Sequence record: SRR31156797_1360
Reading direction: 5' to 3' (one strand)
DNA: 64,000 bases
Shown here: positions 9,756-28,851 of the stretch, one piece after another
Layout: every line of letters begins with the position of its first letter
Position numbering within the stretch: the stretch's first letter is position 1
The notes under the pieces: model-generated
Told to the model about the DNA's origin: nothing
The model's database searches: none
The model's input: the letters and a program-made list of their open reading frames with translations, nothing else
Position numbers and translations under genes: made by a program

Positions 9756-10463
9756 TTACACAAACTTTTCCCTACGTTGCATATTGATTAAACTCCACAA
9801 TACGCAAATAACCGATCCTATCATCAGCATCATTCTATTTTGGTAAAGAACGTTTTGCCAAATGCTGTAACTCATATCGCCCGGAACATCGAAAGGATTT
9901 AAGAAAATATTCCATTTACTATTTTCAAGAGGTTCCGCCAGGATCAAAAAGATTAATCCGATAATGACCATGATTACCGCTGCACCACTGGCATTTTTTA
10001 CCAGCGAAGCCAATAGAAAAGCCAAACTTGCCAAAAATAATAGGCAATACATCAGTTCATATACCATGTGAAAAACAGGTATTTTTATCACAACAAATAC
10101 CGTTATCCATGACATTAGACACATAATGGCAAATAGTAGTAGTATGCTTAAAATAAAGCGTACCAAATAGACTTTATACCTGTAATTGGGAATTCCGAAT
10201 ATGATTTCGAGCATTCGGGTATCCTTGTCGCTTTGTATGTTGTAAATTACCGGATAGAAGAGTATTAGTATACCTGGGAAAATTAAAGTTCCGTAGATGT
10301 CTGCCTCTTCAGGACTGGTATCGTTGAATAGCATGATGCCCAATACCATCAGGAAGAATGCAAATGCAGCTATCAGGAAGTATATGAACTTGTTCGCAAA
10401 AATGATTTTTACATTGTAGCGAACAAAGTCGGTTAGTAGTTTAAATTGTTCTATTGCTTTCAT
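9756..10463 (-). CDS. Six-TM membrane protein, ABC-2 permease-like
   Basis: Six hydrophobic helices, coupling-helix-like DKDTRMLEIIFGIP, last gene of the transport operon. Confidence 0.65.
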   Translation of the reverse strand: MKAIEQFKLLTDFVRYNVKIIFANKFIYFLIAAFAFFLMVLGIMLFNDTSPEEADIYGTLIFPGILILFYPVIYNIQSDKDTRMLEIIFGIPNYRYKVYLVRFILSILLLFAIMCLMSWITVFVVIKIPVFHMVYELMYCLLFLASLAFLLASLVKNASGAAVIMVIIGLIFLILAEPLENSKWNIFLNPFDVPGDMSYSIWQNVLYQNRMMLMIGSVICVLWSLINMQRREKFV

Positions 10464-10506
10464 ACATTTTTATTATTCCTCCAGATAAATCTGGAGTCAA
10501 TTGATA

Positions 10507-13500
10507 TTATGCATTAACCATTGTTATTTTTTTCTCATCTGAATCGTTCAGCAAGCACAGGTAGGCATCTTCGAGATTGGCTTTGGTGTGTACTGCATCG
10601 TATCCCGGATTTTCGTCTGACAGGCAACGAACACGAATCGTATCCTTATCGCGCATGTGATGAATGATAACATGTTCGGTTTTCAATTGCTCAAATTCTT
10701 CAGGCGATACATTCAGCATCCAAACTTTCTGATCGGCAATTCCTGCCATATGAACAGGCTCGCCCAGATATTTTAAGTCTCCCTTTTTCATTACGGCAAC
10801 TCGGTTACACGAGCTGGCTACATCTTCGATAATGTGAGTTGAAAAAATCACAATTCTATCCTGACTCAATTCAACCAATAAGTTTCTAAAGCGGATTCTT
10901 TCGCGAGGATCCAATCCTGCTGTTGGTTCATCTACCACCAATATTCTTGGCAAGTGAAGGAGTATTTGTGCAATACCTATCCTCTGTTTCATACCTCCTG
11001 AGAAGGAACCAATTTTCTCATCTTTCTGATCGAGCATGTGAACAGCTTTTAGCACATATTCTACACGTTCTTTTCTGATCTTATTGTCCTTTAGGTTTTT
11101 CAGAATTCCCATATAGTTTAAGAAATCCCAGGCACTCATGTTTTCGTACATGCCAAATTCCTGAGGCAGATAGCCTATCAATCCCTGCAATTCTTCACGT
11201 TTCTCACGAACATCTATTCCGTTAATGGTAATCTGTCCGTAACTCTGTTCCAAGATTCCACAGATTACTCTCATCAGAGTAGATTTACCAGCACCATTTG
11301 GTCCCAATAATCCGAACATACCGTTTCCGATATCAAATGAAACTCCTTTAACTGCTTTAAACGGAACTTTCTTTTTACCGATAATTGGGATAATCAGCAC
11401 AAAGCGATAAAAGAATTTGCGCAAACCACTAAACGATCCTTTTAAGCGGTTAATGTTGATATTTTCGCGATAAATTTTATTCGAAGTCACCTTAATTTGT
11501 AAGGCTAAATACCAAATGATTCCTACAGGTATCAATAATCCCACCAATTGATATTTTTGGTAGAAATAGACGAATAATATCAGTGGAAATGCCCAATAAA
11601 TTGTTCTGTGTAGAACGAATATCATTACACGACCAATTTTTCCTTTTTTTCGTTCTTGTAGATTTTTACGATACTCCATAATTGGAGCCATAAAGTACAA
11701 GAGCATAATCTGGAAAAGTATGGATAGAAACAGCATCCAATATTCGTTTTCGAGATGATAGTAGTTAAAGAACACCACAAACGCTATTAATGGCAGCTGC
11801 CATATTAGAGTCACAAAATCTTTAAATGTATTGTATGATTCTTTTAAACCCAATCGTTCCCGAATTTTTAATCCTGATTTCCACTCACGAGTAAAACGCC
11901 CGTCCCAATCGTAAATTTTCACCAAATTTCTAATTTCGATATGCAATGGTTCGTCGGCAGCAATTAACTCTTCGTTGGCTTTTCTTAAACCAGCCTGAAC
12001 AAAGTAAGTGCATGCCGGAACCGAGATCAACAATACCAGAAAATCGATAATTTGCCATATTTTACTGTCTACCTCGGTGTAAATGAAATAAGCTCCGGCT
12101 ACCCATGCAATAATTTGTATTGCTTTAACCCAAACTTCCTGACTTTGCATCCAGTTTAAACTGGTTCGCAATCCGGCATATAAGGTTGGAATGAATACCA
12201 AAGTTAAAACTGTACTTAAACTTAAGCCTCCAATAACGGTAATGGCAAAAGGAACACCAATTTGGGTAACGTATTCAGCGCGTCCCAATGCTAGTGGCAT
12301 TAGTGCAATAATGGTAGTAATTGCAGTAATCAAAATCGGACGAATACGAGCCAATCCAGCCATCATTAATGCACGAGATTCACGATATCCTCGTTTTTGC
12401 AATACGTTGGAATAATCAATCATAATAATTCCGTTGTTGACTACAATTCCCAGTAGAATGATTAAGCCCGTAAATACATTTGCATTCATTAAAGAGGTTC
12501 CGGTTACAATTAGTGCAAGCAATGAACCAATAGCTGCCATAGGTATGGAAAACATCATTACAATTGGCATGGTAAAGGATTCGAATACTGAGGCAAGAAT
12601 CATAAAAATCAGAACAATTGCCATGAGCATTAAAAAGCTGAACTCTCCAAGAGTATTGTCTTCATGAATGATTTCAACTGCAATTCCCGATGGCAATGTC
12701 ATTCGCTCGACTATTTCGTCAACATCAACTCTTCCGGCGGTAAGCAGATCTTTTTCATCATTAACTTCATCCAGAAAGCTGTATTGAACTTCCAGTTGTT
12801 TTTCCTGATTGGTTCTTTTAATAGTTGACAATCCATCAGTGAAATTGAGCTTACTGATGGATTGCAATTCGAACTCAGCACCCTGGCTGCCACGAATTGT
12901 TAACTGTCGTAAATCCTTGGCGTCTCTGGTTTCTTGTTCTGTATCGTTAATGGTTTTTATAATGATATCGTACTCTTCAATTCCATCTTTAAAGGTTGCT
13001 CCACTGGCAAATTCTTTTTGAAAGGAATTCAATTCCGATAAAACAGAGCTAACAGGAATATCATACAAAGCCATAACTTGCTTGTCGAGTTCCAGTAGCA
13101 ATTCCGGTCTTTTGGCAGGAATCCTAACGTTCACATTTTTAATTGAACTCAACTGGCTTAGATAATATTCCAAATCCTCGGACAGATCCAGCATCTTATC
13201 AAAATCCTGTCCTTTAATTACCAATTTCTCTTGTTGTGTTCCAATTCCCAGCATCTCCATAAATGGATTGTCGCCACCGAAATTACCTCCGCCACCGCCA
13301 AATCGGCGACCTTGTGCAGGAGGTTCCCAGCTAAATGATGCTTTTGGTAAATCGTCTAAACGCTCCAGAATATTTTGCTTGATCCCAGGAACTGATAAAT
13401 TTTGCTTCTCGCGATAATCATCAATCAAGGAAATCGTAAGCACTGCTTCTTCTTCGTAAACCTGACTTGTAATGTCTTTTTTCTCTTCGAGAGATTCCAG

Positions 13501-15246
13501 TTTTCCTTCGACCTCTCGAATAAACAGATCGGTATTTTTAAGAGTTGTTCCCCCTGGAAGGGTTACATACAATTTCAGATCTTTGGTCTCAGTCTCTTCT
13601 GTAGATATAAAACTCAATCCTAAACTGATCAGTAAGGTGATAAAGAACAATCCCAGTGCGCCCAAAATGGTTCTTCCTGGATGACGCATACAAGACTTTA
13701 GCATCACCAAATAAATCTGAACCAAACGATTGTGATAGGAGATGTTCTCGAAATTAACTGTGCGAATGCCACCTTTTCTCTTCAGAAAACTATGGGTAAT
13801 CATTGGAATTAGTAGAAGAGCAACAACAAGCGAAACCAATAGGGTGGAGATAATGGAAACACCAATGTGCTTGCCCATTAATCCAATTAAGAAATTGGAT
13901 GAAAAGGTAAAGGGAAGGAATACAGTAATTGTTGTAAGCGTTGCCGCAAATATCGATCTCCAAACTTCACGAGTTCCTTGAATTACCGCTGTGTCGGGAT
14001 CTTTCTTTTGAGCCGCGAGTCGATATATGTTTTCGAGAACTACAATACTATTATCCAGAAGCATCCCAATTGCTAATGCCATTCCCAAAAGAGTAAGCGT
14101 GTTTACACTAATACCATAGGCATAAAAGAAATTGAAAGCGGTATAAACCGATATCGGAATCGCCAGGGCAATAGCAGCCACCAAGCGGATGTTTTTAAGG
14201 AATATCCACAATATGAAAATAGCTAAAACACCGCCAACCAATGCCAGTTCGATAATTAAATCGATATTGGTTTCCATGGTTTCAGCCATATTGGTTTGCA
14301 CCACAATTTCAATATCCTTGCCTTTCAGTTCTTCATTTAATTCCTCAATTTTTTCGAGGGTAATTGCCGATAATTTAATAATGTTCGATTGAGCATCCCT
14401 GGTTACCTGCATGGTAACAGCTTCCTTACCATTTACACGGCTGTATGATGTTTGCTCCTTAACACCAAAACTAATGTAGGCGATATCTTTTAATCTGATA
14501 TCTCCCTGTTTTTTCACAACAAGTTCATGCAATTCTTTAATATCGGTATACTCCGATACCACATTTACAAAGTGTATTTTGTCGTTTTCGATTACCTTGC
14601 CGGCAAATGTTCTGGAGTTACTGTTCTGGTTTAGTACCGACCTTACCTCTGATGGACTAATGCCATAACTTTTGCAAATATCATCGCGAAGCAATATTTC
14701 TATCGACTTTTCGCGACCTCCAAAAACAGCAGCATTTGCAATCCCTTCTATATTTTGGAACTTATCCAGAATTTCATTTTCGGTAATTTGTCGCACTCTG
14801 TCAACACCTCCACTTCCACGTACCTGAACGGTCATGAACATGTTGTTGAGTTGCTCCATATCAAATTTTAAAACTTGTACTTGAAATTCTGCCGGCAGAT
14901 CTTTCTTTACCTCTTCAACCTTTTCGGCAAGCTTTAAATAGGCATATTTGATATTGGTTCCCTGTTCGAAGGAAATTTCAATACTTCCACGTTGCTGTCC
15001 TGCTGTTGAGGAAATTTTCTCAACTCCTTCCAAACTTCCTGCTACTCCTTCTAAAGGGATAATTGCCTGACTCTCCATATAGCGAGGATCAACCTCTATG
15101 CCTGTTCCAACCTGAACAAAAAGCATGGGAAGATTGGCATTAGGAATCAACTCAACGGGCAACTGCTTGTAAGAGAAATACCCCAACATGCTTAAACCCG
15201 TGAAGAGCATTGCAATTAAAACCTTTCTTTTTATGATGAAATTCAT
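10507..15246 (-). CDS. RND (AcrB/HAE1-like) permease fused to extra TM helices and a C-terminal ABC ATPase (likely start MNFIIKRK, 1579 aa)
   Basis: RND motifs GMLLDNSIVVLENIYR and RIRPILITAITT; in-frame Walker A GPNGAGKST, LPQ, FSGGMKQR, ILVVDEP, STH. Confidence 0.92.
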   Translation of the reverse strand: MNFIIKRKVLIAMLFTGLSMLGYFSYKQLPVELIPNANLPMLFVQVGTGIEVDPRYMESQAIIPLEGVAGSLEGVEKISSTAGQQRGSIEISFEQGTNIKYAYLKLAEKVEEVKKDLPAEFQVQVLKFDMEQLNNMFMTVQVRGSGGVDRVRQITENEILDKFQNIEGIANAAVFGGREKSIEILLRDDICKSYGISPSEVRSVLNQNSNSRTFAGKVIENDKIHFVNVVSEYTDIKELHELVVKKQGDIRLKDIAYISFGVKEQTSYSRVNGKEAVTMQVTRDAQSNIIKLSAITLEKIEELNEELKGKDIEIVVQTNMAETMETNIDLIIELALVGGVLAIFILWIFLKNIRLVAAIALAIPISVYTAFNFFYAYGISVNTLTLLGMALAIGMLLDNSIVVLENIYRLAAQKKDPDTAVIQGTREVWRSIFAATLTTITVFLPFTFSSNFLIGLMGKHIGVSIISTLLVSLVVALLLIPMITHSFLKRKGGIRTVNFENISYHNRLVQIYLVMLKSCMRHPGRTILGALGLFFITLLISLGLSFISTEETETKDLKLYVTLPGGTTLKNTDLFIREVEGKLESLEEKKDITSQVYEEEAVLTISLIDDYREKQNLSVPGIKQNILERLDDLPKASFSWEPPAQGRRFGGGGGNFGGDNPFMEMLGIGTQQEKLVIKGQDFDKMLDLSEDLEYYLSQLSSIKNVNVRIPAKRPELLLELDKQVMALYDIPVSSVLSELNSFQKEFASGATFKDGIEEYDIIIKTINDTEQETRDAKDLRQLTIRGSQGAEFELQSISKLNFTDGLSTIKRTNQEKQLEVQYSFLDEVNDEKDLLTAGRVDVDEIVERMTLPSGIAVEIIHEDNTLGEFSFLMLMAIVLIFMILASVFESFTMPIVMMFSIPMAAIGSLLALIVTGTSLMNANVFTGLIILLGIVVNNGIIMIDYSNVLQKRGYRESRALMMAGLARIRPILITAITTIIALMPLALGRAEYVTQIGVPFAITVIGGLSLSTVLTLVFIPTLYAGLRTSLNWMQSQEVWVKAIQIIAWVAGAYFIYTEVDSKIWQIIDFLVLLISVPACTYFVQAGLRKANEELIAADEPLHIEIRNLVKIYDWDGRFTREWKSGLKIRERLGLKESYNTFKDFVTLIWQLPLIAFVVFFNYYHLENEYWMLFLSILFQIMLLYFMAPIMEYRKNLQERKKGKIGRVMIFVLHRTIYWAFPLILFVYFYQKYQLVGLLIPVGIIWYLALQIKVTSNKIYRENININRLKGSFSGLRKFFYRFVLIIPIIGKKKVPFKAVKGVSFDIGNGMFGLLGPNGAGKSTLMRVICGILEQSYGQITINGIDVREKREELQGLIGYLPQEFGMYENMSAWDFLNYMGILKNLKDNKIRKERVEYVLKAVHMLDQKDEKIGSFSGGMKQRIGIAQILLHLPRILVVDEPTAGLDPRERIRFRNLLVELSQDRIVIFSTHIIEDVASSCNRVAVMKKGDLKYLGEPVHMAGIADQKVWMLNVSPEEFEQLKTEHVIIHHMRDKDTIRVRCLSDENPGYDAVHTKANLEDAYLCLLNDSDEKKITMVNA

Positions 15247-15310
15247 ATAATCTAAGCTTAAAGCCTGTAGCCTTTGGCTGTTTGGCTTGTTACTGTTTGC
15301 TGATATCTGT

Positions 15311-18300
15311 TTACTCTTTTGTGTAGTTAAGCCTTTCCTTTCTTGATTCAAGGAAAAAAGTTTGCACTCTATCGAAAGCATAGTATACACACGGTATTAC
15401 AACCAATGTAAGTAAGGTGGAAGTCACCAAACCAGCAATAACTGCAATCGCCATAGGTGCTCGTAAAGCAGCACTCTCTCCAAAACCAATGGTTAAAGGA
15501 AGTAAGGCTAATATGGTCGTAATACTTGTCATGATGATTGGGCGAATTCTATTTTCTCCTGCCATCACAATTGAATCTTTAAGAGAATTGCCTTGTTGCT
15601 TGAACTGATTGATAGCATCAACCAGAATAATAGAATCGTTTACAGCAATACCTCCCAGCATAATAATACCAATGTAAGCCATGATATTCATTGGAATTCC
15701 CAATATAAAGAATGCCCAAACAGCTCCAACTCCAGCCAAAGGAATGGTTAGTAAAATGGTAAACGGATGGATTAAAGATTCAAACTGAGAAGCCATAACC
15801 ATGTAGACCAAAATGATGGATAGCATTAATGCAAAACTAAGATTTGAAAGTGCTTCCTGTCTTTTTTGTTCTTCTCCAATCAAGCTTACCTGATAACCTT
15901 GTGGCAACTCAACATTTGCCAACTTGCCGTTGATTTTTCCGATGACCTGATCAAAAGCAGCATCTCCCTGAATATCGGCGCTAATTTTACCGATTCGTGT
16001 TTGATTTCTTCTCAACATTTGCTTTGGAGAAGAAGATTTTTTAATGTTCGCCACTTCGTAAAGAGGAATTTCAGCATCACCACTTTTCAATAAAAGGGTA
16101 TTCAATTCAGATAAACCTGGTTCAGGCATGTGAATGCTAATGTCATTCATTTCCCCACCTTTTTCAAACTTCCCGGCATTTTTTCCCATCAACATATCTT
16201 GTAATTGACCGGTAATGGCATCAGTTGAAAGATTGAAAATTCCAGCTTTATAACGATCGATAATTACATCTATTTCAGGAGCTCCTTCTTCTATATTGGT
16301 TTTTACATTTGCCAAATCAGGAACCTGAACCAATTGGGCTTTAATTTCATTGGAAAGTCTTTCCAATATCTCAATATCTTTCCCTTTTACTTCTACCTCA
16401 ATTGGAGCATTTTCGGTTCCAATGGTCGACTGAAGTGCGGTTTCATCTCGAATAATTGAAATTTCAGCATTTGGAATATCGCTAAGCAGAATTCCTACAT
16501 TTTTAAGAATACTTTCCGATTGAGCTATATATTCATCTTTCAAGCGAATTTTAATATTGGCGGTATTTTCATTTTGGAAAACTGCCTTGTCAGAATTACT
16601 GCCACTACCCGGTCCAACCTGAGTATAAATATTGGCAATTTGGTCGCCCATAGATTGACGAAGCATAGATTCCACAGCTTCAACAGTTTGAGATGTTCTA
16701 TCTAGCTGTGTTCCTTCTTTTAATTCAATATCCAAACTAAATTCTCCAACACCACTCTTTGGTAGATATTCATTTCCAACATAAGGAAGAATTAATCCGG
16801 TAAGAACTATTAACACACAAGCTCCACCAATTACCAAACTTCTTCGGTTCAAAAGTGTGGTAAGTAGGTCTCCATACCATCCTATTTTTACGGATTTGAA
16901 TTCTATTTTTTTCTTTTTCCCTTTGTATGCATAATTGAATAGCATCGGAATAACCAGAATCGCAACAAAAAGGGAAGCAATCAAGGAAAATGCAACAGTC
17001 CAAGCCTGATCTTTAAACAAAGCGCCTGATGCTCCATGCAAATAAACGATTGGTAAGAAAACAACAATTGTTGTTAGGGTTGAGGCAACAATGGCACCTC
17101 CAACTTCTGATGTTCCTTCAATGGCTGCATCCTTTACGGATAAGCCCATTTCCATTTTGCGGAAAATATTTTCAATTACCACAATGGCATTATCAACCAG
17201 CATACCAGCACCCAAAGCCAGTCCGCCCAAAGTCATAATATTTAGACTTAGACCATTAAAGTACATCAGATTGAATGTGGCAATAATGGAGATTGGAATG
17301 GCAAAACTTACGATTGCAGTTACTTTCATTCTTCTTAAAAAGACAAACAGAACAAGTATTGCAATCAACACACCAATAAGTGCGGTTTCTTCCACTTCAT
17401 CAATTGCTTTTTGAATGAATTTGCCTTGATTTTGCACTACGATGAATTGATAACCAGGCAATGCTTTTTTAATGGAAGTCATTGTCTTCTCGAAATCCTC
17501 TACTGCTTTTACCGTATTCGATCCTGTTTCTTTGTATATGGATAAGCCTACACATCTTTCGCCATTAATTCGAACCAGATTTTGAGCCTTTTTAGGAGCA
17601 AAACTAACCTTAGCAACATCCTTCAGTAAGATTGGAACCCTGTTTTTAATCGATGCCTGTTGACTGTTCGTTTGATTTGCTGAAGTTGCAGGATTCGCAG
17701 TTGACTGTTTTATACCGACAATCACATTTTCTATCTCTTCAACATTTCGAATTAAACCAGATCCTTTGATGATGTATTTCGTTCCCATCTCAACAATGCT
17801 TCCTCCGGAAACATTCTGGTTCAGGTTTTGAATTTTTTGTACAATTTCATCTACGGTAATATTGTGAGCATCCAAAAGGTACTGATTTGTTTCAATTCGA
17901 ATTTCTTTTTCCTGAGTACCTGTTAGTTCAACTTCTGCAATCCCTTCCAAACGAATCAACTCGTTGCGAATATAGTTTTCACCCACTTTTCGCAATTCAT
18001 CCATGTCTTTAATTTCCGGATGAAGCATCCCTAGAATTAGAATTGGCGAAGCATTTGGATCATGCTGAGTAATGGTGAATTCATCTATCTCAGCATCCTG
18101 GCTATATGTGGTTAATGCTTTCTGTAAATCGAGAAATGCTTCATCCATATCGCTACCCCAGGTGTACTCAACTGTTACTCTCGCCGAACCTACCATACAA
18201 ACCGACGACACTTGACTAACACCTTTCTGACGAATGGACTGTGCTTCTATACTTTCAATAAATTGCTTCTCTATTTCTTCGGGTGGACGTTCTCCTGCTT

Positions 18301-18451: not shown

Positions 18452-18503
18452 TTTGAATTCTTTTAATCGTGTGAATAAAGCTAAGTCTGTGGAAAAGGAC
18501 CTG

Positions 18504-19553
18504 CTATTTCACAACTTTAATTTTCGATCTGTTTCTTAGCGTTTCAAAGCCTTTAACCACCAATCGATCTTTCTTCTCCAAGCCTGAAATTACCTGAACT
18601 ACATCAGGGTTTTCAAGACCAAACTCAATGATTCTCTCCTCGGCTAATCCTTTGTTCACAACAAATACAGTATGCCCCTTTTGTTTGTTAAGAATTACAT
18701 CCTTAGGAATTACAATTGTAGAATCGGCACTAGCAACAATAATTTCACCTTTGGCAAACATACCTGGGCGAAGCTTTAATTTTGAGTTGTTGATATTCAC
18801 AATGGCTTTAAACGATCTTGTTTCAGAGTCGATCGCCGGCGAAATTTGAGCCAATACTGCTTGTAACGTATCACCTGGAAGAGTGTAATTTACTATTTTA
18901 ACTTCCTGACCAGTTTTAATTGAACCCATATTCTTCTCTGCCAACTGAATTTCCATATGTAGTTTACTGTAATCCATCATGCTTAGCACCGGAGAAGCAG
19001 CTTCAATACGAGTATTTTCAGTATAGTAATTCAGGTTGGTGATAATGCCTGAAAATGGCGCTTGTACTTTCAACTTCGCTAAACGGTATAAAGCATCTTC
19101 GTAAGAATATTTTGCGTTGATTAAATCAATTTCAGCATTTTTCAACTCAGAAAGGGTAACACCTCCTTTTTTATAAAGCGATTGTTGTTTCTCAAATACT
19201 TGCTTAGAAATTTCCAATCTCAGTTCCAAGGATTTGATTTTAATATTGTTCTCGTATTCTTTATCCTCTAAAACAATTACATCGATTCCTTCCTGCACAT
19301 AGTCGCCCAATTCAAATTTCCTGTTGGTTCTCGGATTGATCATCAGGTGGTATTTTCCTCCAACCTCACTCTTTAAATCAACAGTTTTAATCGGATTTAC
19401 AGTACCAGTTGTACTGATGTATTTTTCGATTCCTTTGGGAACAACTTCCTCTACAGATACCTGTACGGCGATATCTTTATTCAATTCGGTATCTTTTTCG
19501 TTACAGGCTGTAAATAAGGCTAAACTAACGATGATAAATGCAATTCGTTTCAT
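18504..19553 (-). CDS. RND periplasmic adaptor (membrane fusion lipoprotein; likely start MKRIAF)
   Basis: Lipobox LFTAC, VQAPFSGII, LRPGMF, ISGLEKKDRLVVKG. Confidence 0.92.
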   Translation of the reverse strand: MKRIAFIIVSLALFTACNEKDTELNKDIAVQVSVEEVVPKGIEKYISTTGTVNPIKTVDLKSEVGGKYHLMINPRTNRKFELGDYVQEGIDVIVLEDKEYENNIKIKSLELRLEISKQVFEKQQSLYKKGGVTLSELKNAEIDLINAKYSYEDALYRLAKLKVQAPFSGIITNLNYYTENTRIEAASPVLSMMDYSKLHMEIQLAEKNMGSIKTGQEVKIVNYTLPGDTLQAVLAQISPAIDSETRSFKAIVNINNSKLKLRPGMFAKGEIIVASADSTIVIPKDVILNKQKGHTVFVVNKGLAEERIIEFGLENPDVVQVISGLEKKDRLVVKGFETLRNRSKIKVVK

Positions 19554-19593
19554 ATTGTAGGCGTTTGTATGGTGTGTCATGATTGTTTATAAA

Positions 19594-21093
19594 TTATTCC
19601 ATTATCAGATTTTCCTGAAGTTCCTGAGGAACAAAAGATCTGTCGTTTTCAAAATCCCAAAGAGATTGAATTTTTAAATTCAGCAATTCAAGCTTGTAAT
19701 TGATCAGGGAGTTAGCCAGGTTCATTTTCTTTTCGGATAACTGGTTCTGGAATCGCTCCAAATCGATACTGGTTAAATCTCCGTTTTTATATCGCTCTAA
19801 ATTAATATCGTAAGTCAATTCAGCATTCTTTTCATTTTGCTTGGCAATGTCTATTTGCTGAATCAAATTCTGTAGGTTTCTATAAATTTTCCTGATATTA
19901 ATTGTAATGTCATCTTTCAAGACATTCTTATCAATTTCACGACTTTCCACTTCCAGCTCGGCAGCTCTTATTCTGGCTTTTCTTTCTCCCCAATCAAAAA
20001 TTGGAATGGAAAAAGTAATTTCTGCTTTAGGACTCTTGGTTGGTCGGTTGTATACATCTGCCAATTTTTCGTTATTTCCCATAATCCCAATCGAAAGACT
20101 TACATTTCCTTTGAATTCATTTACTGCAGAGGTTTGAATCAAATCGAATTTGGCATTGTTTAGGTCAATTTCACGCTGTGTTAATTCCAACCTTTGACTT
20201 AATCCATTTTGGATCGCTTTTTCTAAATTAACAACTACTGGAACATATTTAATATCAGTACTCACAGTAATATCTTCGTAAAGAGAGATTCCCAAAAGCA
20301 ATTTGAATTCGTCTTTTGCATTTTCCAATTCAACCCGATTGTTATCCAAATTGGATTTGCTGGTAGCAAAATTTAACTCAGCCTGATACAATTCTTCTTT
20401 AGCCGACAAACCACCTTCAACCTTACTTGCAATAATATCCTTACTTATTACCTGATTGTCGAATTCCTCCTCGGCAATTTTTAAAGCCATCTGTTTTTGG
20501 TAGATTGAATAAAATGCTTGATTTACTTGTCGCTCCATATTCAACATTTGAATGGAGTAGGCAAGAGTTGCATTTTCAAGATTCAACTCATTGCGGGTTA
20601 AATCCATTTTGGTTTTATTGTAGGTGAATAGCGGCTGATCATACTGCATATAAAGTGAATTGTTATATCCTGAGTAGGAAGAATTACTTGCTTCAGAGTA
20701 GTTATCCTGATAGCCAAATTCATTTCTTAAAGACAATCTACCATCGGTATATTTTATAGGTTGAGAAACAATAAATGTTCCATTTGCTCCTTTATTTTCC
20801 GACGTATTCCATTTTGAAAAATACTCTTCATAGCTTTCTGTTTTGCTATAAGATAATGGAGTTAAATCGAATGAAAATCGGGAACGCAAAGATGCCAACT
20901 GAGCATTCAATTGTTCTTTGTTTTGCATCATATTAATCCTCGATTTTTTAATGTCAGGACTATTTTCAAAAGCAATTAAAAGAGATTCCTCTAAGGTGAT
21001 TTCTTTTTGTGCATTTGCTTTTGTCGAGCTTAAAAATATTGCTCCAATACATATTGCAAGTACAAGTGAGAGCTTTGTTTTGGTAATGATCAT
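19594..21093 (-). CDS. TolC family outer-membrane channel
   Basis: Signal peptide, ITLEESLLIAFENSP, YDQPLFT, FSIPIFDWG, ERYKNG. Confidence 0.92.
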   Translation of the reverse strand: MIITKTKLSLVLAICIGAIFLSSTKANAQKEITLEESLLIAFENSPDIKKSRINMMQNKEQLNAQLASLRSRFSFDLTPLSYSKTESYEEYFSKWNTSENKGANGTFIVSQPIKYTDGRLSLRNEFGYQDNYSEASNSSYSGYNNSLYMQYDQPLFTYNKTKMDLTRNELNLENATLAYSIQMLNMERQVNQAFYSIYQKQMALKIAEEEFDNQVISKDIIASKVEGGLSAKEELYQAELNFATSKSNLDNNRVELENAKDEFKLLLGISLYEDITVSTDIKYVPVVVNLEKAIQNGLSQRLELTQREIDLNNAKFDLIQTSAVNEFKGNVSLSIGIMGNNEKLADVYNRPTKSPKAEITFSIPIFDWGERKARIRAAELEVESREIDKNVLKDDITINIRKIYRNLQNLIQQIDIAKQNEKNAELTYDINLERYKNGDLTSIDLERFQNQLSEKKMNLANSLINYKLELLNLKIQSLWDFENDRSFVPQELQENLIME

Positions 21094-21115: not shown

Positions 21116-24100
21116 TTATTTATTTTCTATCCATTTTATTGCATCAGCAAAAAGATAGGGACCTACCGATTTATTTATAAGTTCCACTTTTGCTGTTTCA
21201 GGAGTGATGTAGTAACTACCTAAATAATTCCATCCATTGTCCAACTCCTGATCGGATTTATTCACCTCTTCAAAACCATCTTCATGATAAATTTTAAAGT
21301 TGTAATCCGCTTTGGATTTTCGTTTTCGTCCCCAGTGTTCTACCTTTTCAATATGGCAGTAGATATCGTAATAACCTTTGTTTTTTACTTCTGATTTCCA
21401 ACTGGCAGTTCTTTCTCCTTGTCCGGATTTGGTGAAAAATGCGGATCGCACATATTTTCCAAAGAAACCTGATCGAAGTACATTTTTCCATTCGTTTGGC
21501 GGATTCCAGGTTCTCAATCGCGAATATTCTTCTTCTGATCCTCTTCTTTCATCAACCCATTTTTTCAGTTGACTTTTATTTGATATCTGAACGTATTCGA
21601 ATCCTTTGTCCTCATTGTCCACCACAAATTCATTATCGGCAAGAATTCCTTCGAAAGGAGCAACATCTTTTACTTCATTAAAAAACTGACTCTTTTTGGT
21701 TTCTGAAAAATCACTGAAATCATATATTAAACTGTTGGGTAAATTCTCAGAAATATGTGTGAAAACATTCATTCTTCCGGGTTGAGATGGAAATACAAAA
21801 CCTAACTCTCGAGCTGAATTTGCCGGAATAAAAATAGACTTGGTAAAATCGGGATTTTTATTGCCTTGATTTCTTCTTCCTCGTCTACGATTCTGACCGC
21901 CAGTTTCGATATTTACACTTACGATTCCATCAACCGATTCCGGATTTGAAATCTTAAAACGGATTTGATATTTAATGTGATCGCCATCTTTTACTTTATA
22001 GGTTTCCAGATCTTTAATTAAAAAACCAGGCAGTTTTTTAGTGGTGTACCAATCCTTTACCTCTTCCTCTATTGATGCATCGAAATTGGATTTTATTGCT
22101 TGATCGAATTCATTGAAATCGCTATTTTGAAACTGATGAGTATCAACATAGTTAATAAGGAAATCTGTAAAATCCTTTTCACCATATCGAGCATTTAGTA
22201 AAGAAAACAGATGAGTTCCTTTAGCTCTTAAAACATCATTCACATAAATCTGTTCATCATTGTCATCAGCTTTTTTAACTCTGGCAATCGTAAGTTCCTT
22301 AAGTGTAGATTTCTTTAATTCCAGATTGATTCGTTCTGTTTTACTTATTCCATCGAAACGCCAGCGAGATTGCCTTTGAGTAGTTTCATGCTTTTCTTTT
22401 AAGTAAACTCCTAATGCAAAATTTAATGCCGAATATTCTTTTGAGTTTAAATCGGTTGTAAATGTATAATAATTCGGAAATAGTGAATAGGTGTTTCTAT
22501 CCACATGATCGAATTGATACCATTCCGTTGTTGGAGGCATAAAATTTCCACGAATAAATCGTTTCAGCATTCTTGCTTGTAATTCTTCGTCAGAAACTTC
22601 TTCATTATCACGCTTCATTCTTTTCTCGAAACGATTTCTTCTTCTTTTAAAATCTGTTTCTTCCATTACAACACCTTTTTCAGGATAGAAAATAATCTCT
22701 GGTTGCACTGCATCACTTGCTATAGACCAAATGTGTTTGTCTAAAGCAAATTGAATTGGAACCTCGGCAAGAGAAAATCTTTTAAAAGGATATTCCAAAC
22801 CATGTGTGGTTTCATATTCGTTCTTCAATTCACGAATCAAGCTTGGCAAGCTATCCTGTATGGCATCGAAGTGCTTTAGGAAAAATTCATTTCCTTGAAT
22901 TGAAAATATGGAATAGTCAATAGAATCAACTGTGGTTGTATACTTTTTATAATCACCTATCAACAAACTGATTTGAGGCAGTTTATTTTCAGGGCGAAAC
23001 TCATAAACTCCATCTTCAGTTGTTTTAAGATTTCCTTGTGAAACCGGAACTAAAGAATTCGAAGTATGTACATCAAGGGAATATTGTGTAAAGTCCGGAG
23101 AATGTAAAGTTGGATTTTTCGATGAGTAACCTACTCCTGAAATTGGATACCAAAGCGCTTCATTTGTTAGGCAAACAAAGTCTTCTTGCAGGTATGAATA
23201 CCTCTTGCGGATACGAAACATTTCAGCTGTAAAATTCCCAGTCGCCAATTCTGGATCTTGATCTAAAAAGTGAGTTCTTTCATCAATACCACCTCTGTAG
23301 AAAATATCTAAAATCATTTTCTCATCAGAAATTAAACCTTTAGCAGGAATAATTTTTAACACTTGTAATTCTCGTTTAAACTCAAGATTTTCTCCATTAG
23401 AACTTACTGCGGAAACTTGTAAATCAGGATTTAAACTAAAAATTATTGTATCTATCGATGATTTCGAAGAATTTATTATTTCCAGTTTGGCTTTTACAGA
23501 AATCTCTTCTCCGGTATGCGCTAAATCAATGAAATTTGAAACAACATCAACCTTTGGATGATTTATATACTTATCGTTTATGGTTATTAATTGTTCTCTA
23601 TATTCTTGTCCGCCAATTTTAATATCTAAATATTTTTTAGATAATAGTCCGCCTATAATAAAACAGAATATTGCCAGATAAATTGGTAAGGAAACCAATC
23701 GCTTAGCCTGAGGTAAACGTGGTAGTTTTGAAATGGTAAAAAAGATCAATCCAATCCCTAAAAAGAAATAAATACCGCGATGAATTGCTACCTCAACAAT
23801 ATCTCCAAATCCACTAATTGTAGAATTCATCATTGGAACCTGATAGGCGATATAGTCGAATATATGGTAAAATTTTGTATTGAGATAAAAGATAGTTAGG
23901 GCAATATATCCAAGTAAAATGATAAATGTAATTGCTTGATTTTTCAATACAATCATTAAAAAGAAAGCTAAACCAAGTATGTAAATCAATGTAGGAATAG
24001 ATATCAAAAGTGGATAGTAAAATAATACCCAAATGCTTTTTGATGATTCGTTACTAAGAAAGGAAAAGCCGATTCCCATTAATAATATCAATACATTAAG

Positions 24101-24460
24101 AATAACAAATACCATGATAATTCCGAATGACTTACCGAGAATATATTCACTATTGGTCATCGATCGGGCATAAATCACTTCAACGGTATCATTCTTACTA
24201 TCCTGTTTCAAAAATTCGGAAGCCAGGAATACAGCAACAATAGCTTGTCCTAAATTTAAAATGATCAAATTTGCATATGGAATTGCAGCAGGTATAGCTC
24301 TGTAAAGCCAGGGTGCACCACTGTTTTCGACAAAGGCGGCTATGTTAAAACCAGCAACAAATAAAATGGATAAGCCGGCAAATATTCTAAAAAACCAGGA
24401 TCTTAATAAAGTTCTGGTTTCGTATTTGGCAACCGTGCGTATGGTGTGTAGGGAAATCAT
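21116..24460 (-). CDS. ABC-2-type permease fused to a degenerate M1-aminopeptidase-like domain and C-terminal golvesin/xanthan-lyase-like beta domain
   Basis: N-terminal VAKYETRTLLR, about 7 TM helices, EYILGK; KGTHLF..YGEKDF..DWY resembles the M1 helical region but no HExxH seen; VDNEDKGF...GWNYLGSY...ADAIKW end domain. Confidence 0.7.
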   Translation of the reverse strand: MISLHTIRTVAKYETRTLLRSWFFRIFAGLSILFVAGFNIAAFVENSGAPWLYRAIPAAIPYANLIILNLGQAIVAVFLASEFLKQDSKNDTVEVIYARSMTNSEYILGKSFGIIMVFVILNVLILLMGIGFSFLSNESSKSIWVLFYYPLLISIPTLIYILGLAFFLMIVLKNQAITFIILLGYIALTIFYLNTKFYHIFDYIAYQVPMMNSTISGFGDIVEVAIHRGIYFFLGIGLIFFTISKLPRLPQAKRLVSLPIYLAIFCFIIGGLLSKKYLDIKIGGQEYREQLITINDKYINHPKVDVVSNFIDLAHTGEEISVKAKLEIINSSKSSIDTIIFSLNPDLQVSAVSSNGENLEFKRELQVLKIIPAKGLISDEKMILDIFYRGGIDERTHFLDQDPELATGNFTAEMFRIRKRYSYLQEDFVCLTNEALWYPISGVGYSSKNPTLHSPDFTQYSLDVHTSNSLVPVSQGNLKTTEDGVYEFRPENKLPQISLLIGDYKKYTTTVDSIDYSIFSIQGNEFFLKHFDAIQDSLPSLIRELKNEYETTHGLEYPFKRFSLAEVPIQFALDKHIWSIASDAVQPEIIFYPEKGVVMEETDFKRRRNRFEKRMKRDNEEVSDEELQARMLKRFIRGNFMPPTTEWYQFDHVDRNTYSLFPNYYTFTTDLNSKEYSALNFALGVYLKEKHETTQRQSRWRFDGISKTERINLELKKSTLKELTIARVKKADDNDEQIYVNDVLRAKGTHLFSLLNARYGEKDFTDFLINYVDTHQFQNSDFNEFDQAIKSNFDASIEEEVKDWYTTKKLPGFLIKDLETYKVKDGDHIKYQIRFKISNPESVDGIVSVNIETGGQNRRRGRRNQGNKNPDFTKSIFIPANSARELGFVFPSQPGRMNVFTHISENLPNSLIYDFSDFSETKKSQFFNEVKDVAPFEGILADNEFVVDNEDKGFEYVQISNKSQLKKWVDERRGSEEEYSRLRTWNPPNEWKNVLRSGFFGKYVRSAFFTKSGQGERTASWKSEVKNKGYYDIYCHIEKVEHWGRKRKSKADYNFKIYHEDGFEEVNKSDQELDNGWNYLGSYYITPETAKVELINKSVGPYLFADAIKWIENK

Positions 24461-24466
24461 ATTAGG

Positions 24467-25351
24467 CTAATTTAAGGTCGGTGATTTTTCCATAAAATAA
24501 ACATAGGCGTGTTCCAGATTGGGTTCCAGCTCAATCGCATTTTTAAATTGGCTACCATCACCAATTAATTGCACTTCCCATCCTTCTTGGGTGGGAATTG
24601 TGGAAACTACGGCATATTTATCTTTAATCAGATCGTATTCGTAGCCCGAAGTACTTACCTGCCAAACATGTCCTCTGGCTTGTTCAATTAAGTTTTGCGG
24701 TGATCCCTGAAATGCAACCCGTCCGCTATTTAAAAGTGCCAAATTGTTGCAAACACTCGAAATATCACCAACAATATGAGTAGATAGAATAATGATCACA
24801 TCTTGCTGACTGATTTCAGATAGAATATTTCTGAATCGGATTCTTTCTTCAGGATCCAGTCCTGTTGTAGGCTCATCAACAATCACAATTTTAGGATTGC
24901 CAATTAAGGTTTGGGCGATACCTAATCTTCGTTTCATTCCGCCTGATAACTTATTGGCATCGCGTTCTCGCACATCAAACAAACCAACTTTATCAAGCCA
25001 CTCATCTACTTTTTGTCTTCTTATTTTCTTACTTTTTTCACCAGATAAGGAAGCTGCGTAATCTAAAAATTCCCAGGTTTTTAATTTTGTAAAGAATCTG
25101 AAATCTTGAGGCAGGTAGCCAAGCATACTCCTAATTTCTTTTCGGTTTTTCATTAAATCATAGGAATCGACAGTAACAGAACCTTGGGTAGGCTCCATTA
25201 AGCTTACTAAAATCCTCATTAAACTTGATTTTCCTGCACCATTTGGACCCAGCAATCCAAACATGCCGTTTCCAATTTCAAGATTAACATTATCTAATGC
25301 TTTTTTACCATTAGGATATATCTTACTTAGTTGATTTATATTGATCTGCAT
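24467..25351 (-). CDS. ABC transporter ATP-binding protein
   Basis: GPNGAGKSS, LSGGMKRR, IVIVDEP, STH. Confidence 0.95.
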   Translation of the reverse strand: MQININQLSKIYPNGKKALDNVNLEIGNGMFGLLGPNGAGKSSLMRILVSLMEPTQGSVTVDSYDLMKNRKEIRSMLGYLPQDFRFFTKLKTWEFLDYAASLSGEKSKKIRRQKVDEWLDKVGLFDVRERDANKLSGGMKRRLGIAQTLIGNPKIVIVDEPTTGLDPEERIRFRNILSEISQQDVIIILSTHIVGDISSVCNNLALLNSGRVAFQGSPQNLIEQARGHVWQVSTSGYEYDLIKDKYAVVSTIPTQEGWEVQLIGDGSQFKNAIELEPNLEHAYVYFMEKSPTLN

Positions 25352-28847: not shown

Positions 28848-28851
28848 AGCT

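What the first reader, a model, noticed from the sequence alone, without database searches (positions are those of the whole stretch)
9756..25351. Hybrid RND-ABC envelope transport machine: seven-gene operon with an RND-ATPase fusion
Seen: one co-oriented, tightly spaced run encoding ABC ATPase, ABC-2 permease with a very large periplasmic domain, TolC, MFP, RND-1, RND-2 fused to a second ABC ATPase, and a small 6-TM permease. Established: RND pumps (AcrB, MdtBC) are proton-driven, whereas tripartite ABC pumps (MacAB-TolC, HlyBD) are ATP-driven, and the two normally form separate machines. Inference: the parts list gives two NBDs plus two TMDs (a heterodimeric ABC-2 transporter) and one TolC/MFP/heteromeric RND, covalently linked through RND-2. 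This suggests a supercomplex in which an ABC module hands substrate to, gates or energises the RND-TolC conduit. I know of no characterised system like this.
Basis: partly seen in the sequence, partly recalled or inferred. Interest (0 to 1): 0.92.

Follow-up and report, generated by a model that had tools for sequence, protein, structure and literature searches.

The report
Conserved RND pump fused to ABC ATPase
A seven-gene operon found in many marine Bacteroidota builds an outer-membrane efflux pump in which a proton-driven RND transporter is fused in one protein to an ATP-driven ABC motor, a combination with no described example in the papers searched.

Summary
Window 9756-25351 (minus strand) carries seven tightly spaced genes: ABC ATPase, ABC-2-like permease with a large ectodomain, TolC-like channel, RND adaptor, RND-1, RND-2 fused to a second ABC ATPase, and a small permease.

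- **Fusion is real.** The frame stays open for at least 1544 codons in 69 of 70 related loci. The full gene order recurs down to 54% identity.
- **New anatomy.** Six extra membrane helices join RND-2 to the ATPase. Four of them are inserted inside the ATPase fold, between its first two strands.
- **ATPases look active.** Both keep all catalytic motifs, and each is the other's nearest paralogue.
- **Small permease.** It is predicted to dock on the fused ATPase at the usual permease-ATPase interface (score 0.68, best control 0.00).
- **Large permease.** It occurs in exactly the same 4 of 401 sampled Bacteroidota genomes as the fusion. Its ectodomain has an M1-aminopeptidase fold but no zinc site.

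Best reading (about 0.5): an ATP-driven ABC module tethered to a proton-driven RND/TolC pump forms a two-stage exporter. The substrate is unknown. ATP energising the RND is weakened, because unfused RND paralogues show the same unusual relay residues. Six literature searches found no description.

The parts
24467..25351 (-). ABC1: free ABC ATPase, 294 aa, of the ABC-2/DrrA/GldA-like kind
   Evidence: PF00005, 109.8 bits. The best NCBIfam matches, GldA and DrrA, fall below their cut-offs. Walker A, LSGGM, DEP and STH are present here and in 9 of 9 orthologues checked. It is 41% identical to the fused ATPase and is that ATPase's best paralogue in 3 of 3 genomes.
23567..24460 (-). PermM1 membrane domain (residues 1-298): an N-terminal amphipathic helix, then about seven long helices
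   Evidence: Helices H4-20, 22-47, 60-85, 92-99, 103-135, 144-172, 175-211, 221-245 and 253-298 in the model (mean pLDDT 66.6). No Pfam hit. It aligns colinearly with Perm2 by hhalign, but the match is not significant (E 0.11).
21116..23566 (-). PermM1 ectodomain (residues 299-1114, plus stop): M1-aminopeptidase-like fold without a zinc site, a beta-sandwich, and a Golvesin_C domain
   Evidence: Foldseek matches IRAP, ERAP1 and PepN at E 6.6e-18 to 1e-16 over about 650 columns. PF25275 scores 42.3 bits. PF01433 scores 23.2, below its 27.7 cut-off. No invariant His lies between residues 316 and 1058 in 10 orthologues.
19594..21093 (-). TolC-like outer membrane factor, 499 aa
   Evidence: PF02321 with two stretches, 125.9 bits.
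18504..19580 (-). RND-type periplasmic adaptor (MFP), 358 aa
   Evidence: TIGR01730, 184.8 bits against a cut-off of 94.9. HlyD_D23 and HlyD_3 also match.
15311..18451 (-). RND-1, 1046 aa
   Evidence: PF00873 positions 1-1020 of 1021, 710.7 bits. TM4 reads 'DN' in 67 of 67 sequences. TM10 reads 'ND' in 59 of 67, 'NN' in 7 and 'SN' in 1.
12145..15246 (-). RND-2 core of the fused protein (ORF residues 49-1082)
   Evidence: PF00873 positions 2-1018 of 1021, 543.5 bits. The best solved relative is MdtB, 9lyq_B, at E 1.1e-65. TM4 reads 'DN' in 69 of 69 and TM10 'NN' in 69 of 69.
11974..12135 (-). Two extra membrane helices after RND TM12 (ORF residues 1086-1139)
   Evidence: Helices 26-46 and 50-79 of the model, pLDDT 84-90 in those blocks. 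They carry invariant W52, P65, F70, L75 and A78 in 32 sequences.
11911..11940 (-). First beta strand of the ATPase domain ('IEIRNLVKIY'), separated from the rest of the domain
   Evidence: Strand 91-100 in the model. Solved ATPase domains align from their residue 1-2 onto model residues 87-90. The strand resembles the ABC1 start 'ININQLSKIY'.
11362..11910 (-). Insertion inside the ATPase domain: an amphipathic helix plus four membrane helices (ORF residues 1161-1343)
   Evidence: Helices 105-119, 129-152, 156-186, 191-220 and 223-249. A profile of the whole linker finds only 142 representatives among 1.84 billion proteins. Chain 1vpl aligns 235 residues to a 467-residue span of the model, so the insertion is skipped.
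10507..11361 (-). Remainder of the fused ABC ATPase (NBD2), with its C-terminal domain and stop codon
   Evidence: PF00005, 103.8 bits. Walker A, Q-loop Q350, SGGMKQ, D427-E428 and H459 are invariant in 32 sequences. VIA gives Z 27-29 against solved ABC ATPases.
9756..10463 (-). Perm2: small ABC-2-type permease, 235 aa
   Evidence: PF12698, 31.7 bits against a cut-off of 31.6. It lies directly downstream of the fusion in 63 of 65 loci that reach far enough. It is predicted to dock on NBD2: ipSAE 0.68, best of 3 controls 0.00.
9698..9735 (.). Hairpin between the end of the operon and a convergent rhodanese gene, resembling a two-way terminator
   Evidence: 16-pair stem on the plus strand and 13-pair stem on the minus strand. 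This is a consensus match only.
25400..25428 (-). Possible Bacteroidota-type promoter (TTTG ... TAnnTTTG), 49-77 nt upstream of ABC1
   Evidence: One of 6 matches in the window, where 9.6 are expected by chance, so it is a weak hint only. No other minus-strand match lies inside the operon. The motif is recalled from memory.

Best explanation
This is one conserved envelope export system that joins two kinds of pump.

RND-1 and RND-2 most likely form a heteromeric RND trimer. With the RND-type adaptor and the TolC-like channel, it would carry substrate from the periplasmic side or outer leaflet to the outside, driven by the proton gradient.

RND-2 carries an ABC ATPase at its C-terminus. Two extra membrane helices come first. 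Four more are inserted between the first and second strand of the ATPase fold. This ATPase works with the small ABC-2-type permease Perm2 as an ATP-driven exporter or flippase held beside the RND. It would lift the substrate out of the cytoplasm or inner leaflet and release it where the RND can take it. That makes a covalently tethered two-stage relay.

The paralogous pair ABC1 and PermM1 belongs to the same system. PermM1 has an M1-aminopeptidase-like ectodomain that is probably not catalytic. The pair is either the second half of the same ABC transporter or a second ABC module using the same adaptor and channel.

Shown here: gene content, the fusion, its conservation, intact catalytic motifs, and co-occurrence of the parts. 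Supported by prediction only: Perm2 docking on the fused ATPase. Inferred: the heteromeric RND, the hand-off, stoichiometry, proton use and the substrate.
For: Fusion and conservation:
- One frame holds ACR_tran and ABC_tran.
- All 120 listed database relatives carry PF00873 and PF00005. 115 of the 120 are 1544-1591 aa.
- In 69 of 70 stop-bounded frames the frame is at least 1544 codons.
- 246 stretches in species-representative genomes encode a relative of the linker-ATPase part.

Gene order next to the fusion, among loci long enough to show it:
- RND-1: 66 of 66.
- Adaptor: 61 of 64.
- TolC: 60 of 63.
- Perm2: 63 of 65.
- End of PermM1: 51 of 63. Nine of the 12 misses are loci that stop inside or at TolC.
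- ABC1 plus full PermM1 lie directly upstream of TolC in 5 of 5 genomes checked.

Co-occurrence:
- The linker and PermM1 occur in the same 4 of 401 sampled Bacteroidota genomes, on the same contigs about 8.8 kb apart.
- In the five loci that break the order, the missing part is elsewhere in the same genome in 5 of 5.

ATPases:
- Motifs are invariant in NBD2 (32 sequences) and present in ABC1 (9 of 9).
- ABC1 is the best paralogue of NBD2 in 3 of 3 genomes.

Predicted Perm2 docking:
- ipSAE 0.68, 0.67 and 0.69 in three runs; best of 3 controls 0.00.
- That mark was reached by 51 of 78 solved complexes and 2 of 108 mismatched pairs.
- The runs agree in at least 64% of contacts, and partner pLDDT is at least 76.
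- The interface joins the Q-loop and helical region of NBD2 to Perm2 residues 5-23 and 82-98. These overlap the invariant columns of both proteins.

RND relay:
- Both RNDs keep the TM4 Asp and TM11 Arg.
Against: - No result here shows physical hand-off, the heteromeric trimer or any substrate.
- An RND trimer and an ABC dimer have mismatched symmetry, so the stoichiometry is unsolved.
- The confident contacts are all cytoplasmic. No confident contact joins the six linker helices to Perm2.
- The pass may reflect likeness to solved ABC-2 complexes. The alignments I supplied were not used.
- In one clade ABC1-PermM1-TolC-adaptor sits at one locus and RND-1-fusion-Perm2 at another. The first set could therefore be a self-sufficient ABC pump.
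- Neither RND has the AcrB-type second Asp or the Lys, so proton use is assumed rather than read from known residues.
- Expression evidence is weak. Short contigs from two RNA libraries of one study lie on all seven genes, but such libraries can hold DNA.
Confidence: 0.5

Rival explanations
1. Two pumps share parts but have no hand-off. ABC1-PermM1 with the adaptor and TolC is a tripartite ABC pump, comparable to MacAB-TolC. RND-1/RND-2 is an ordinary RND pump using the same adaptor and channel. The fused ATPase with Perm2 is a third, independent exporter. The fusion serves only co-expression, co-localisation or fixed subunit ratios.
For: - In the clade of L066, L067 and L072, ABC1-PermM1-TolC-adaptor forms its own locus with no RND gene within the 6.4 kb sequenced past the adaptor. 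RND-1-fusion-Perm2 lies on another contig.
- Each ATPase gene sits next to its own permease gene.
- Both ATPases have fully canonical motifs, as expected of homodimers.
Against: - The RND locus of the split clade has no adaptor or channel gene next to it, so it still depends on parts encoded elsewhere.
- PermM1 and the fusion co-occur strictly: the same 4 of 401 genomes, with 0 of the other 397 having either.
- A fusion kept from 98% down to 54% identity, together with a conserved six-helix linker, is hard to explain by co-expression alone.
Confidence: 0.25
2. ATP acts on the RND pump itself. Closure of the fused ATPase dimer is passed through the linker helices, or through the PermM1 ectodomain and the adaptor, to gate, assemble or energise the RND/TolC conduit. 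This would resemble the way MacB, LolCDE and FtsEX use ATP for mechanical work without carrying substrate across the inner membrane.
For: - The ATPase is wired directly to TM12 of RND-2, and four membrane helices are inserted into its fold.
- RND-2 has only one acidic residue in the relay region, reading 'DN' and 'NN' in 69 of 69 sequences.
- PermM1 has a very large periplasmic domain with no catalytic site, which would suit a mechanical or binding role.
Against: - The same 'DN' plus 'NN' pattern occurs in 3 of 22 RND paralogues of two related genomes. These three are unfused, sit beside an adaptor gene, and have no ATPase gene within about 8 kb. The pattern is therefore not tied to an ATPase.
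- Perm2 is a conventional ABC-2-type permease, predicted to dock at the usual coupling site. This points to ordinary ABC transport.
- The linker helices have no conserved charged residues within the membrane.
Confidence: 0.2
3. The fusion is an artefact: an assembly chimera, a missed stop or a frameshift. RND-2 and the ATPase would really be separate genes.
For: One related locus, L068, has a shorter frame of 1369 codons.
Against: - 69 of 70 frames are intact.
- 19 full-length representatives at 50% clustering carry the linker at about residues 1005-1307.
- Three of the four short hits checked have full-length cluster mates of 1565-1570 aa. The fourth is a single fragment on a 4.7-kb contig.
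- Contigs of a different metagenome (X2) cover 10506-11930 and 12040-15647. Their only 1-nt gap, at 15283, lies in the spacer between RND-1 and RND-2.
Confidence: 0.01

Closest known systems
MdtABC-TolC of E. coli (two RND paralogues in one pump; its heterotrimer composition is recalled, not tested here)
   Same: Two tandem RND genes follow an RND-type adaptor gene. The best solved relative of RND-2 is MdtB (9lyq_B, E 1.1e-65). NCBIfam MdtB and MdtC models match both RNDs, below their cut-offs.
   Different: Mdt has no ATPase, no ABC permeases and no extra membrane helices. In the alignment MdtB shows Asp-Asp in TM4 and Lys in TM10, where RND-2 has Asp-Asn and Asn.
MacAB-TolC and other tripartite ABC pumps (review PMC8277102, passages only; PMC5673888 and PMC5985334, abstracts in the search listing)
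   Same: An ABC ATPase and a permease with a large periplasmic domain are encoded with an adaptor and a TolC-like channel. In the split clade ABC1-PermM1-TolC-adaptor stands as its own locus.
   Different: [quoted passage not shown] PermM1 has about seven predicted helices and a C-terminal ectodomain of about 815 aa. Its ATPase is a separate protein of the ABC-2 kind. The adaptor scores as RND-type, not MacA (57.8 bits against a cut-off of 342).
YbhGFSR of E. coli (ABC-2-type exporter; abstracts of PMC13739795 and PMC7190983 in the search listing; the YbhG adaptor is recalled)
   Same: It uses ABC-2-type permeases with a DrrA-like ATPase, and it shows that ABC-2 exporters can have unusual subunit fusions.
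   Different: There the two ATPase domains are fused to each other, not to an RND protein. No RND is part of that system.
Co-operation of single-component inner-membrane pumps with AcrAB-TolC, or two-step efflux (recalled from the literature, not read here)
   Same: The same proposed logic applies: one transporter moves substrate out of the cytoplasm and an RND/TolC pump takes it from the periplasmic side.
   Different: There the partners are separate proteins with no known physical link. Here one partner is covalently joined to the RND.
Proteins automatically named 'ABC transporter permease/M1 family aminopeptidase' (name from the atlas clusters)
   Same: An N-terminal ABC-2-like membrane domain precedes an M1-like ectodomain. 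PermM1 scores 0.87-0.88 by features against such clusters.
   Different: PermM1's nearest clusters (0.99) carry Golvesin_C rather than Peptidase_M1. PermM1 falls below the Pfam M1 cut-off and has no conserved zinc motif. I found no described function for either group.

Membership tests
RND permease (Pfam ACR_tran, PF00873) | Full-length match to the family profile, covering twelve membrane helices and two large periplasmic loops | tested here: met
   RND-1 matches positions 1-1020 of 1021 at 710.7 bits. RND-2 matches 2-1018 of 1021 at 543.5 bits. The cut-off is 28.
AcrB-type (HAE-1) RND pump | Proton relay Asp407, Asp408 (TM4) and Lys940 (TM10), with Arg971 (TM11). The residue numbers are recalled. 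| tested here: not met
   In the alignments to MdtB and MdtF, 'dd' aligns with 'dn' and 'k' with 'n'. TM4 reads 'DN' in 67 of 67 RND-1 and 69 of 69 RND-2 sequences. TM10 reads 'ND' in 59 of 67 RND-1 and 'NN' in 69 of 69 RND-2. The TM11 Arg is kept in all sequences displayed: 65 of 67 RND-1 (two patterns were not printed) and 69 of 69 RND-2.
ABC ATPase (PF00005) | Walker A, Q-loop, LSGGQ-type signature, Walker B Asp-Glu and H-loop | tested here: met
   In NBD2 the motif GPNGAGK-T, Q350, SGGMKQ, D427-E428 and H459 are invariant in 32 sequences. ABC1 has them in the window and in 9 of 9 orthologues.
ABC ATPase (PF00005) | Continuous RecA-like and helical subdomain fold | tested here: inconclusive
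   The fold is present: Z 27.6, rmsd 1.7 A, with 235 of 238 residues of 1vpl aligned. It is interrupted, however, by an insertion of about 183 residues with four membrane helices between strands 1 and 2. This rests on a predicted model of mean pLDDT 81.5.
ABC-2 (type V) permease | Match to an ABC2_membrane profile | tested here: met
   Perm2 scores 31.7 bits on PF12698 against a cut-off of 31.6, so it only just passes. The PermM1 membrane domain has no Pfam hit. Its hhalign match to Perm2 is colinear over 203 columns but not significant (E 0.11), so PermM1 remains inconclusive.
ABC-2 (type V) permease | An N-terminal interface helix and a coupling helix that dock on the ATPase | tested here: met
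   This is a prediction only. Perm2 residues 5-23 and 82-98 contact NBD2 residues 342-376. ipSAE is 0.68 and the best of 3 controls 0.00. The mark was reached by 51 of 78 solved complexes and 2 of 108 mismatches. The pass may reflect likeness to solved complexes.
RND-type periplasmic adaptor (TIGR01730) | Score above the curated cut-off | tested here: met
   184.8 bits against 94.9.
Outer membrane factor (PF02321, OEP) | Two OEP repeats | tested here: met
   Two stretches, 125.9 bits against a cut-off of 22. The TIGR01844 TolC subfamily model scores 86, below its 225 cut-off.
M1 zinc aminopeptidase | HExxH plus a distal Glu as the zinc site, and the family profile | tested here: not met
   PF01433 scores 23.2, below its 27.7 cut-off, and only the profile's last part (130-218) matches. 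No invariant His lies between residues 316 and 1058 in 10 orthologues. The fold itself is M1-like (Foldseek E 6.6e-18).
MacB-type (type VII) ABC transporter | Four membrane helices with the periplasmic domain between helices 1 and 2, and the ATPase fused at the N-terminus (recalled in part; the fusion is stated in a PMC8277102 passage) | tested here: not met
   PermM1 has about seven predicted helices followed by a C-terminal ectodomain (mean pLDDT 66.6). Its ATPase is a separate gene.

The most novel reading that the evidence does not exclude
This is a single dual-energy machine. One RND-2 protomer of an RND-1/RND-2 trimer carries, through its six linker helices, a heterodimeric ABC transporter. 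That transporter consists of the fused ATPase with Perm2 on one side and ABC1 with PermM1 on the other. ATP hydrolysis and the proton gradient act in one assembly. The ABC half feeds substrate directly into the RND/adaptor/TolC conduit or gates it. The M1-like ectodomain of PermM1 contacts the adaptor or the RND porter domain.
Probability: 0.3. Interest if true: 0.92.

Novelty: new variant of a known kind. Interest (0 to 1): 0.8.

Why it matters
RND pumps take substrates from the periplasmic side. How molecules made or trapped in the cytoplasm or inner leaflet reach them is usually explained by loose co-operation with separate inner-membrane transporters. A natural, conserved fusion of an RND protein to an ABC ATPase would be the first fixed physical link between the two pump classes. 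It offers a direct system for testing two-stage efflux and for asking whether ATP and the proton gradient can be used in one machine.

The ATPase domain with four membrane helices inserted between its first two strands is also unusual in itself. A profile of the linker region that holds it finds nothing outside this family (142 representatives of 1.84 billion proteins).

At least one host is a named culture-collection strain of a non-pathogen (Marinifilum flexuosum DSM 21950, title of locus L006). That should make biochemical and genetic tests possible.

Tried and rejected
- **Lost proton relay as a sign of ATP drive.** Rejected as a specific sign. A control of 22 RND paralogues in two related genomes found the same 'DN' plus 'NN' pattern in three unfused RNDs. 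None has an ATPase gene within about 8 kb.
- **Linker helices as a known permease.** Foldseek and VIA matched only the ATPase part. Whole-length matches to Atm1 and Sav1866 had rmsd 21-26 A. hhalign of the linker against Perm2 found nothing (E 0.13 over 16 columns). The membrane part was not folded and searched alone, so a known fold is not excluded.
- **Free-standing linker-ATPase proteins.** Short hits looked like candidates. Three of the four checked (P0152, P0193, P0250) have full-length cluster mates, and all four lie on contigs of 2.4-4.7 kb. I treat them as fragments. I did not run the 'shorter' or 'longer' option of the search for homologous proteins.
- **PermM1 as an active peptidase.** Rejected, because no conserved zinc motif is present.
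- **PDB sequence search with PermM1.** Nothing below E 0.025.
- **Sigma-70 promoter scan.** 61 sites against 64.8 expected, so uninformative.
- **Recalled Bacteroidota promoter motif.** It occurs no more often than chance in the window (6 against 9.6).
- **RNA evidence.** Only short contigs at 90-100% likeness from two libraries of one study. One, at 18381-18580, spans the adaptor/RND-1 gap. The tool notes that DNA can be present in such libraries and that a contig across two genes shows no single transcript. Parts without cover are not evidence.
- **Own genome and earlier findings.** No genome is held for this window.
- **Literature.** Six searches and a term search within review PMC8277102, of which only the first 300,000 characters are held, found no description. 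Subscription journals, TCDB and supplements were not searchable.

Full report
**What is there.** The minus strand of window 9756-25351 carries seven ORFs separated by 6, 22, 13, 52, 64 and 43 nt. In order they are:
- an ABC ATPase (ABC1, 294 aa);
- a 1114-aa membrane protein (PermM1);
- a TolC-like outer membrane factor (499 aa);
- an RND-type adaptor (358 aa);
- RND-1 (1046 aa);
- a 1627-codon ORF with a full-length RND domain followed by an ABC ATPase domain;
- a 235-aa ABC-2-type permease (Perm2).

The long ORF begins at an upstream GTG. The likely start is Met49 (nt 15246), giving 1579 aa, the length of its 98%-identical database relative P0002. The run is bounded by a hairpin at 9698-9735, facing a convergent rhodanese gene, and by a 473-nt spacer before a divergent CMD-family gene. 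A match to the recalled Bacteroidota promoter motif lies 49-77 nt upstream of ABC1. That motif is not enriched in the window, so it is only a hint.

**The fusion is real and conserved.**
- A search with the C-terminal 568 residues listed 120 best proteins. All carry PF00873 and PF00005. 115 are 1544-1591 aa and the other five are 1025-1433 aa. Source names include Marinifilum, Labilibaculum, Ancylomarina and many Bacteroidales MAGs.
- In species-representative genomes, 246 stretches encode a relative. 80 loci were kept, at 54-98% identity. The window is 98% identical to a locus titled uncultured Marinifilum sp..
- In 69 of the 70 loci where an upstream stop bounds the frame, the frame holding the ATPase is 1544-1648 codons. 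L068 has 1369.
- A profile of the linker alone, run against 1.84 billion representatives, found only 142 proteins. 19 are 1550-1590 aa with the linker at about residues 1005-1307. The rest are shorter pieces.
- Four of the short ones were looked up. Three have full-length cluster mates of 1565-1570 aa, and all four lie on contigs of 2.4-4.7 kb. One full-length representative is named from candidate division KSB1, and some relatives are clearly high-GC.
- Contigs of an unrelated metagenome (X2) cover 10506-11930 and 12040-15647. Their single 1-nt gap lies in the RND-1/RND-2 spacer.

**Anatomy of the junction.**
- After RND TM12 come two hydrophobic helices, then the sequence 'IEIRNLVKIY'. This resembles the first strand of ABC1, 'ININQLSKIY'.
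- Next come an amphipathic helix and four more hydrophobic helices. Only then do the second strand and Walker A follow.
- The model (mean pLDDT 81.5, 32-sequence alignment) shows exactly this order.
- Solved ATPase domains align from their residue 1-2 onto model residues 87-90 and continue after the insertion. For example, 1vpl aligns 235 of its 238 residues at rmsd 1.7 A and Z 27.6, over a model span of 89-555.
- The ATPase fold is therefore split by a four-helix membrane insertion. The even numbers of helices (two, then four) keep both parts of the ATPase in the cytoplasm.
- The linker is well conserved (mean column identity 60%). It has invariant Trp, Pro and Gly residues but no conserved charge within the helices.
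- All catalytic motifs of the fused ATPase are invariant in 32 sequences.

**The other parts belong to the same system.** Among loci long enough to show each neighbour:
- RND-1 lies directly upstream in 66 of 66.
- The adaptor is there in 61 of 64.
- TolC is there in 60 of 63.
- Perm2 lies directly downstream in 63 of 65.
- The end of PermM1 is seen in 51 of 63. Nine of the 12 misses are loci that stop at or inside TolC.

Further evidence:
- ABC1 and full-length PermM1 lie directly upstream of TolC in 5 of 5 genomes spanning 54-80% identity of the fusion.
- In an even sample of 401 Bacteroidota genomes the linker profile hit 4, all in frames of 1572-1584 aa. PermM1 hit the same 4, on the same contigs about 8.8 kb away. 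Only a few first-look candidates per genome were scored, so 'not found' is not 'absent'.
- The exceptions are informative. In L066, L067 and L072 the operon is split. RND-1-fusion-Perm2 sits at one place and ABC1-PermM1-TolC-adaptor on another contig.
- In L014 and L059, both from MAGs, Perm2 lies on another contig.
- All parts looked for were present in 5 of 5 of these genomes.

**The two ABC modules.**
- ABC1 and the fused ATPase are 41% identical over 274 residues, including the C-terminal domain.
- ABC1 is the best paralogue of the fused ATPase in 3 of 3 genomes, clearly so in two of them.
- ABC1 motifs are intact in 9 of 9 orthologues.
- Perm2 is predicted to bind the fused ATPase. ipSAE was 0.68, 0.67 and 0.69, with the best of three controls at 0.00. 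That mark was reached by 51 of 78 solved complexes and 2 of 108 mismatched pairs. The runs share at least 64% of contacts and partner pLDDT is at least 76.
- The interface is the Q-loop and helical region of the ATPase against Perm2 residues 5-23 and 82-98, plus the C-terminal tip. This is the usual docking mode of ABC-2 permeases, so the pass may partly reflect likeness to solved complexes. My alignments were not used.
- The interface residues coincide with invariant columns in both families.
- Whether the two modules form one heterodimer or two homodimers is open. Gene adjacency and the split clade favour two modules. Strict co-occurrence is compatible with either.

**PermM1.**
- The model (mean pLDDT 66.6, 10 sequences) has an N-terminal amphipathic helix and about seven long helices. 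A beta domain, a helical domain, a beta sandwich and the Golvesin_C domain follow.
- Foldseek matches M1 aminopeptidases (IRAP, ERAP1, PepN) at E 6.6e-18 to 1e-16 over about 650 columns at 10-14% identity.
- The Pfam M1 score is below its cut-off and covers only the last part of the profile.
- Ten orthologues share no invariant His in that region. The domain is most likely a non-catalytic binding or structural module.
- An odd number of helices would place it in the periplasm. That is inferred from the model only.

**The RND pair.**
- RND-1 and RND-2 are about 27% identical.
- Aligned to MdtB and MdtF, RND-2 has Asp-Asn where those have Asp-Asp, and Asn where they have Lys.
- Across orthologues, TM4 is 'DN' in 67 of 67 RND-1 and 69 of 69 RND-2. 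TM10 is 'ND' in 59 of 67 RND-1 (seven 'NN', one 'SN') and 'NN' in 69 of 69 RND-2. The TM11 Arg is kept in every sequence displayed.
- This could suggest a pump that no longer runs on protons, but the control speaks against it. Among 22 RND paralogues in two related genomes, three unfused ones have the same 'DN' plus 'NN' pattern. Each has an adaptor gene beside it and no ATPase gene within about 8 kb.
- Only the fusion orthologues in those two genomes have frames over 1500 aa.

**How it most likely works.** I favour, at about 0.5, a tethered two-stage exporter.
- The fused ATPase with Perm2 moves a substrate out of the cytoplasm or inner leaflet, next to the RND.
- The RND-1/RND-2 trimer, with the adaptor and TolC, expels it.
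- ABC1-PermM1 is either the second half of that ABC transporter or a second ABC module on the same adaptor and channel.

Rivals:
- Separate pumps that merely share parts (0.25).
- ATP acting mechanically on the RND or adaptor (0.2).
- An artefact (0.01).

The substrate is unknown. Flanking genes are not conserved beyond close relatives and give no clue.

**Expression.** Short contigs from two RNA libraries of one marine-sediment study lie on all seven genes at 90-100% likeness. One, at 18381-18580 with no differences, spans the adaptor/RND-1 spacer. The tool warns that DNA may be present in such libraries, so this is a weak hint of transcription.

**Comparison and novelty.**
- Every part belongs to a known family: RND, RND adaptor, outer membrane factor, ABC ATPase and ABC-2 permease.
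- The nearest systems are MdtABC-TolC for the RND pair, MacAB-TolC for ABC-with-adaptor logic, and YbhFSR for an ABC-2 exporter with fused subunits.
- What I did not find described is the covalent RND-ABC link, the six-helix linker with four helices inside the ATPase fold, and the fixed seven-gene set.
- Full-text searches found nothing. A term search in the 2021 tripartite-pump review, whose first 300,000 characters are held, showed no such fusion. Subscription journals, TCDB and supplements could not be searched.
- The proteins are already in public databases under automatic names such as 'multidrug efflux pump subunit AcrB/ABC-type multidrug transport system ATPase subunit'.
- I rate it a new variant of a known kind, with a 0.3 chance that it is a true dual-energy single machine.

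Noticed in passing
window 6888-8986 (minus strand): A BlaI/BlaR1-like pair lies downstream of the operon: Penicillinase_R repressor (129 aa) and Peptidase_M56 sensor (570 aa). It follows the operon in Marinifilum and some Ancylomarina loci but not in more distant ones.
   Followed up: partly
window 9337-9690, 25825-26232 and 26339-26683 (plus strand): Two small rhodanese-domain genes and a carboxymuconolactone-decarboxylase-family gene flank the operon on the opposite strand.
   Followed up: no
window 26730-31572 (minus strand): Two large ORFs of 710 and 906 aa. The first has only a weak MG2-domain hit (E 0.0013, below cut-off), which might point to an alpha-2-macroglobulin-like protein.
   Followed up: no
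L093, L096, L097 (related genomes G002 and G003): Unfused RND paralogues of 1045-1153 aa have Asp-Asn in TM4 and Asn-Asn in TM10, so they lack both the second Asp and the Lys of the AcrB-type relay. Each has an adaptor gene next door. How such RNDs couple to protons is unexplained.
   Followed up: partly
G002:C4:82890-83705 and G002:C2:810914-811735: Two further close paralogues (40% identity, full length) of the ABC1/fused-ATPase subfamily occur in Marinifilum flexuosum, outside the operon. Their neighbours were not examined.
   Followed up: no
L068: This is the only related locus with a shortened fusion frame: 1369 codons, with the RND-2 core matched over 72%. It may be a frameshift or an assembly error in that MAG.
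   Followed up: no
L040 and L042: Two 3.47-kb contigs of near-equal length, apparently of one project by their accession prefix, give identical match coordinates and near-identical scores. One is labelled Candidatus Neomarinimicrobiota and the other Bacteroidetes, so the first label may be a binning error.
   Followed up: no
window 15247-15390: The long ORF overlaps the end of RND-1 by 80 nt only because of an in-frame upstream GTG. The conserved start is Met49.
   Followed up: yes
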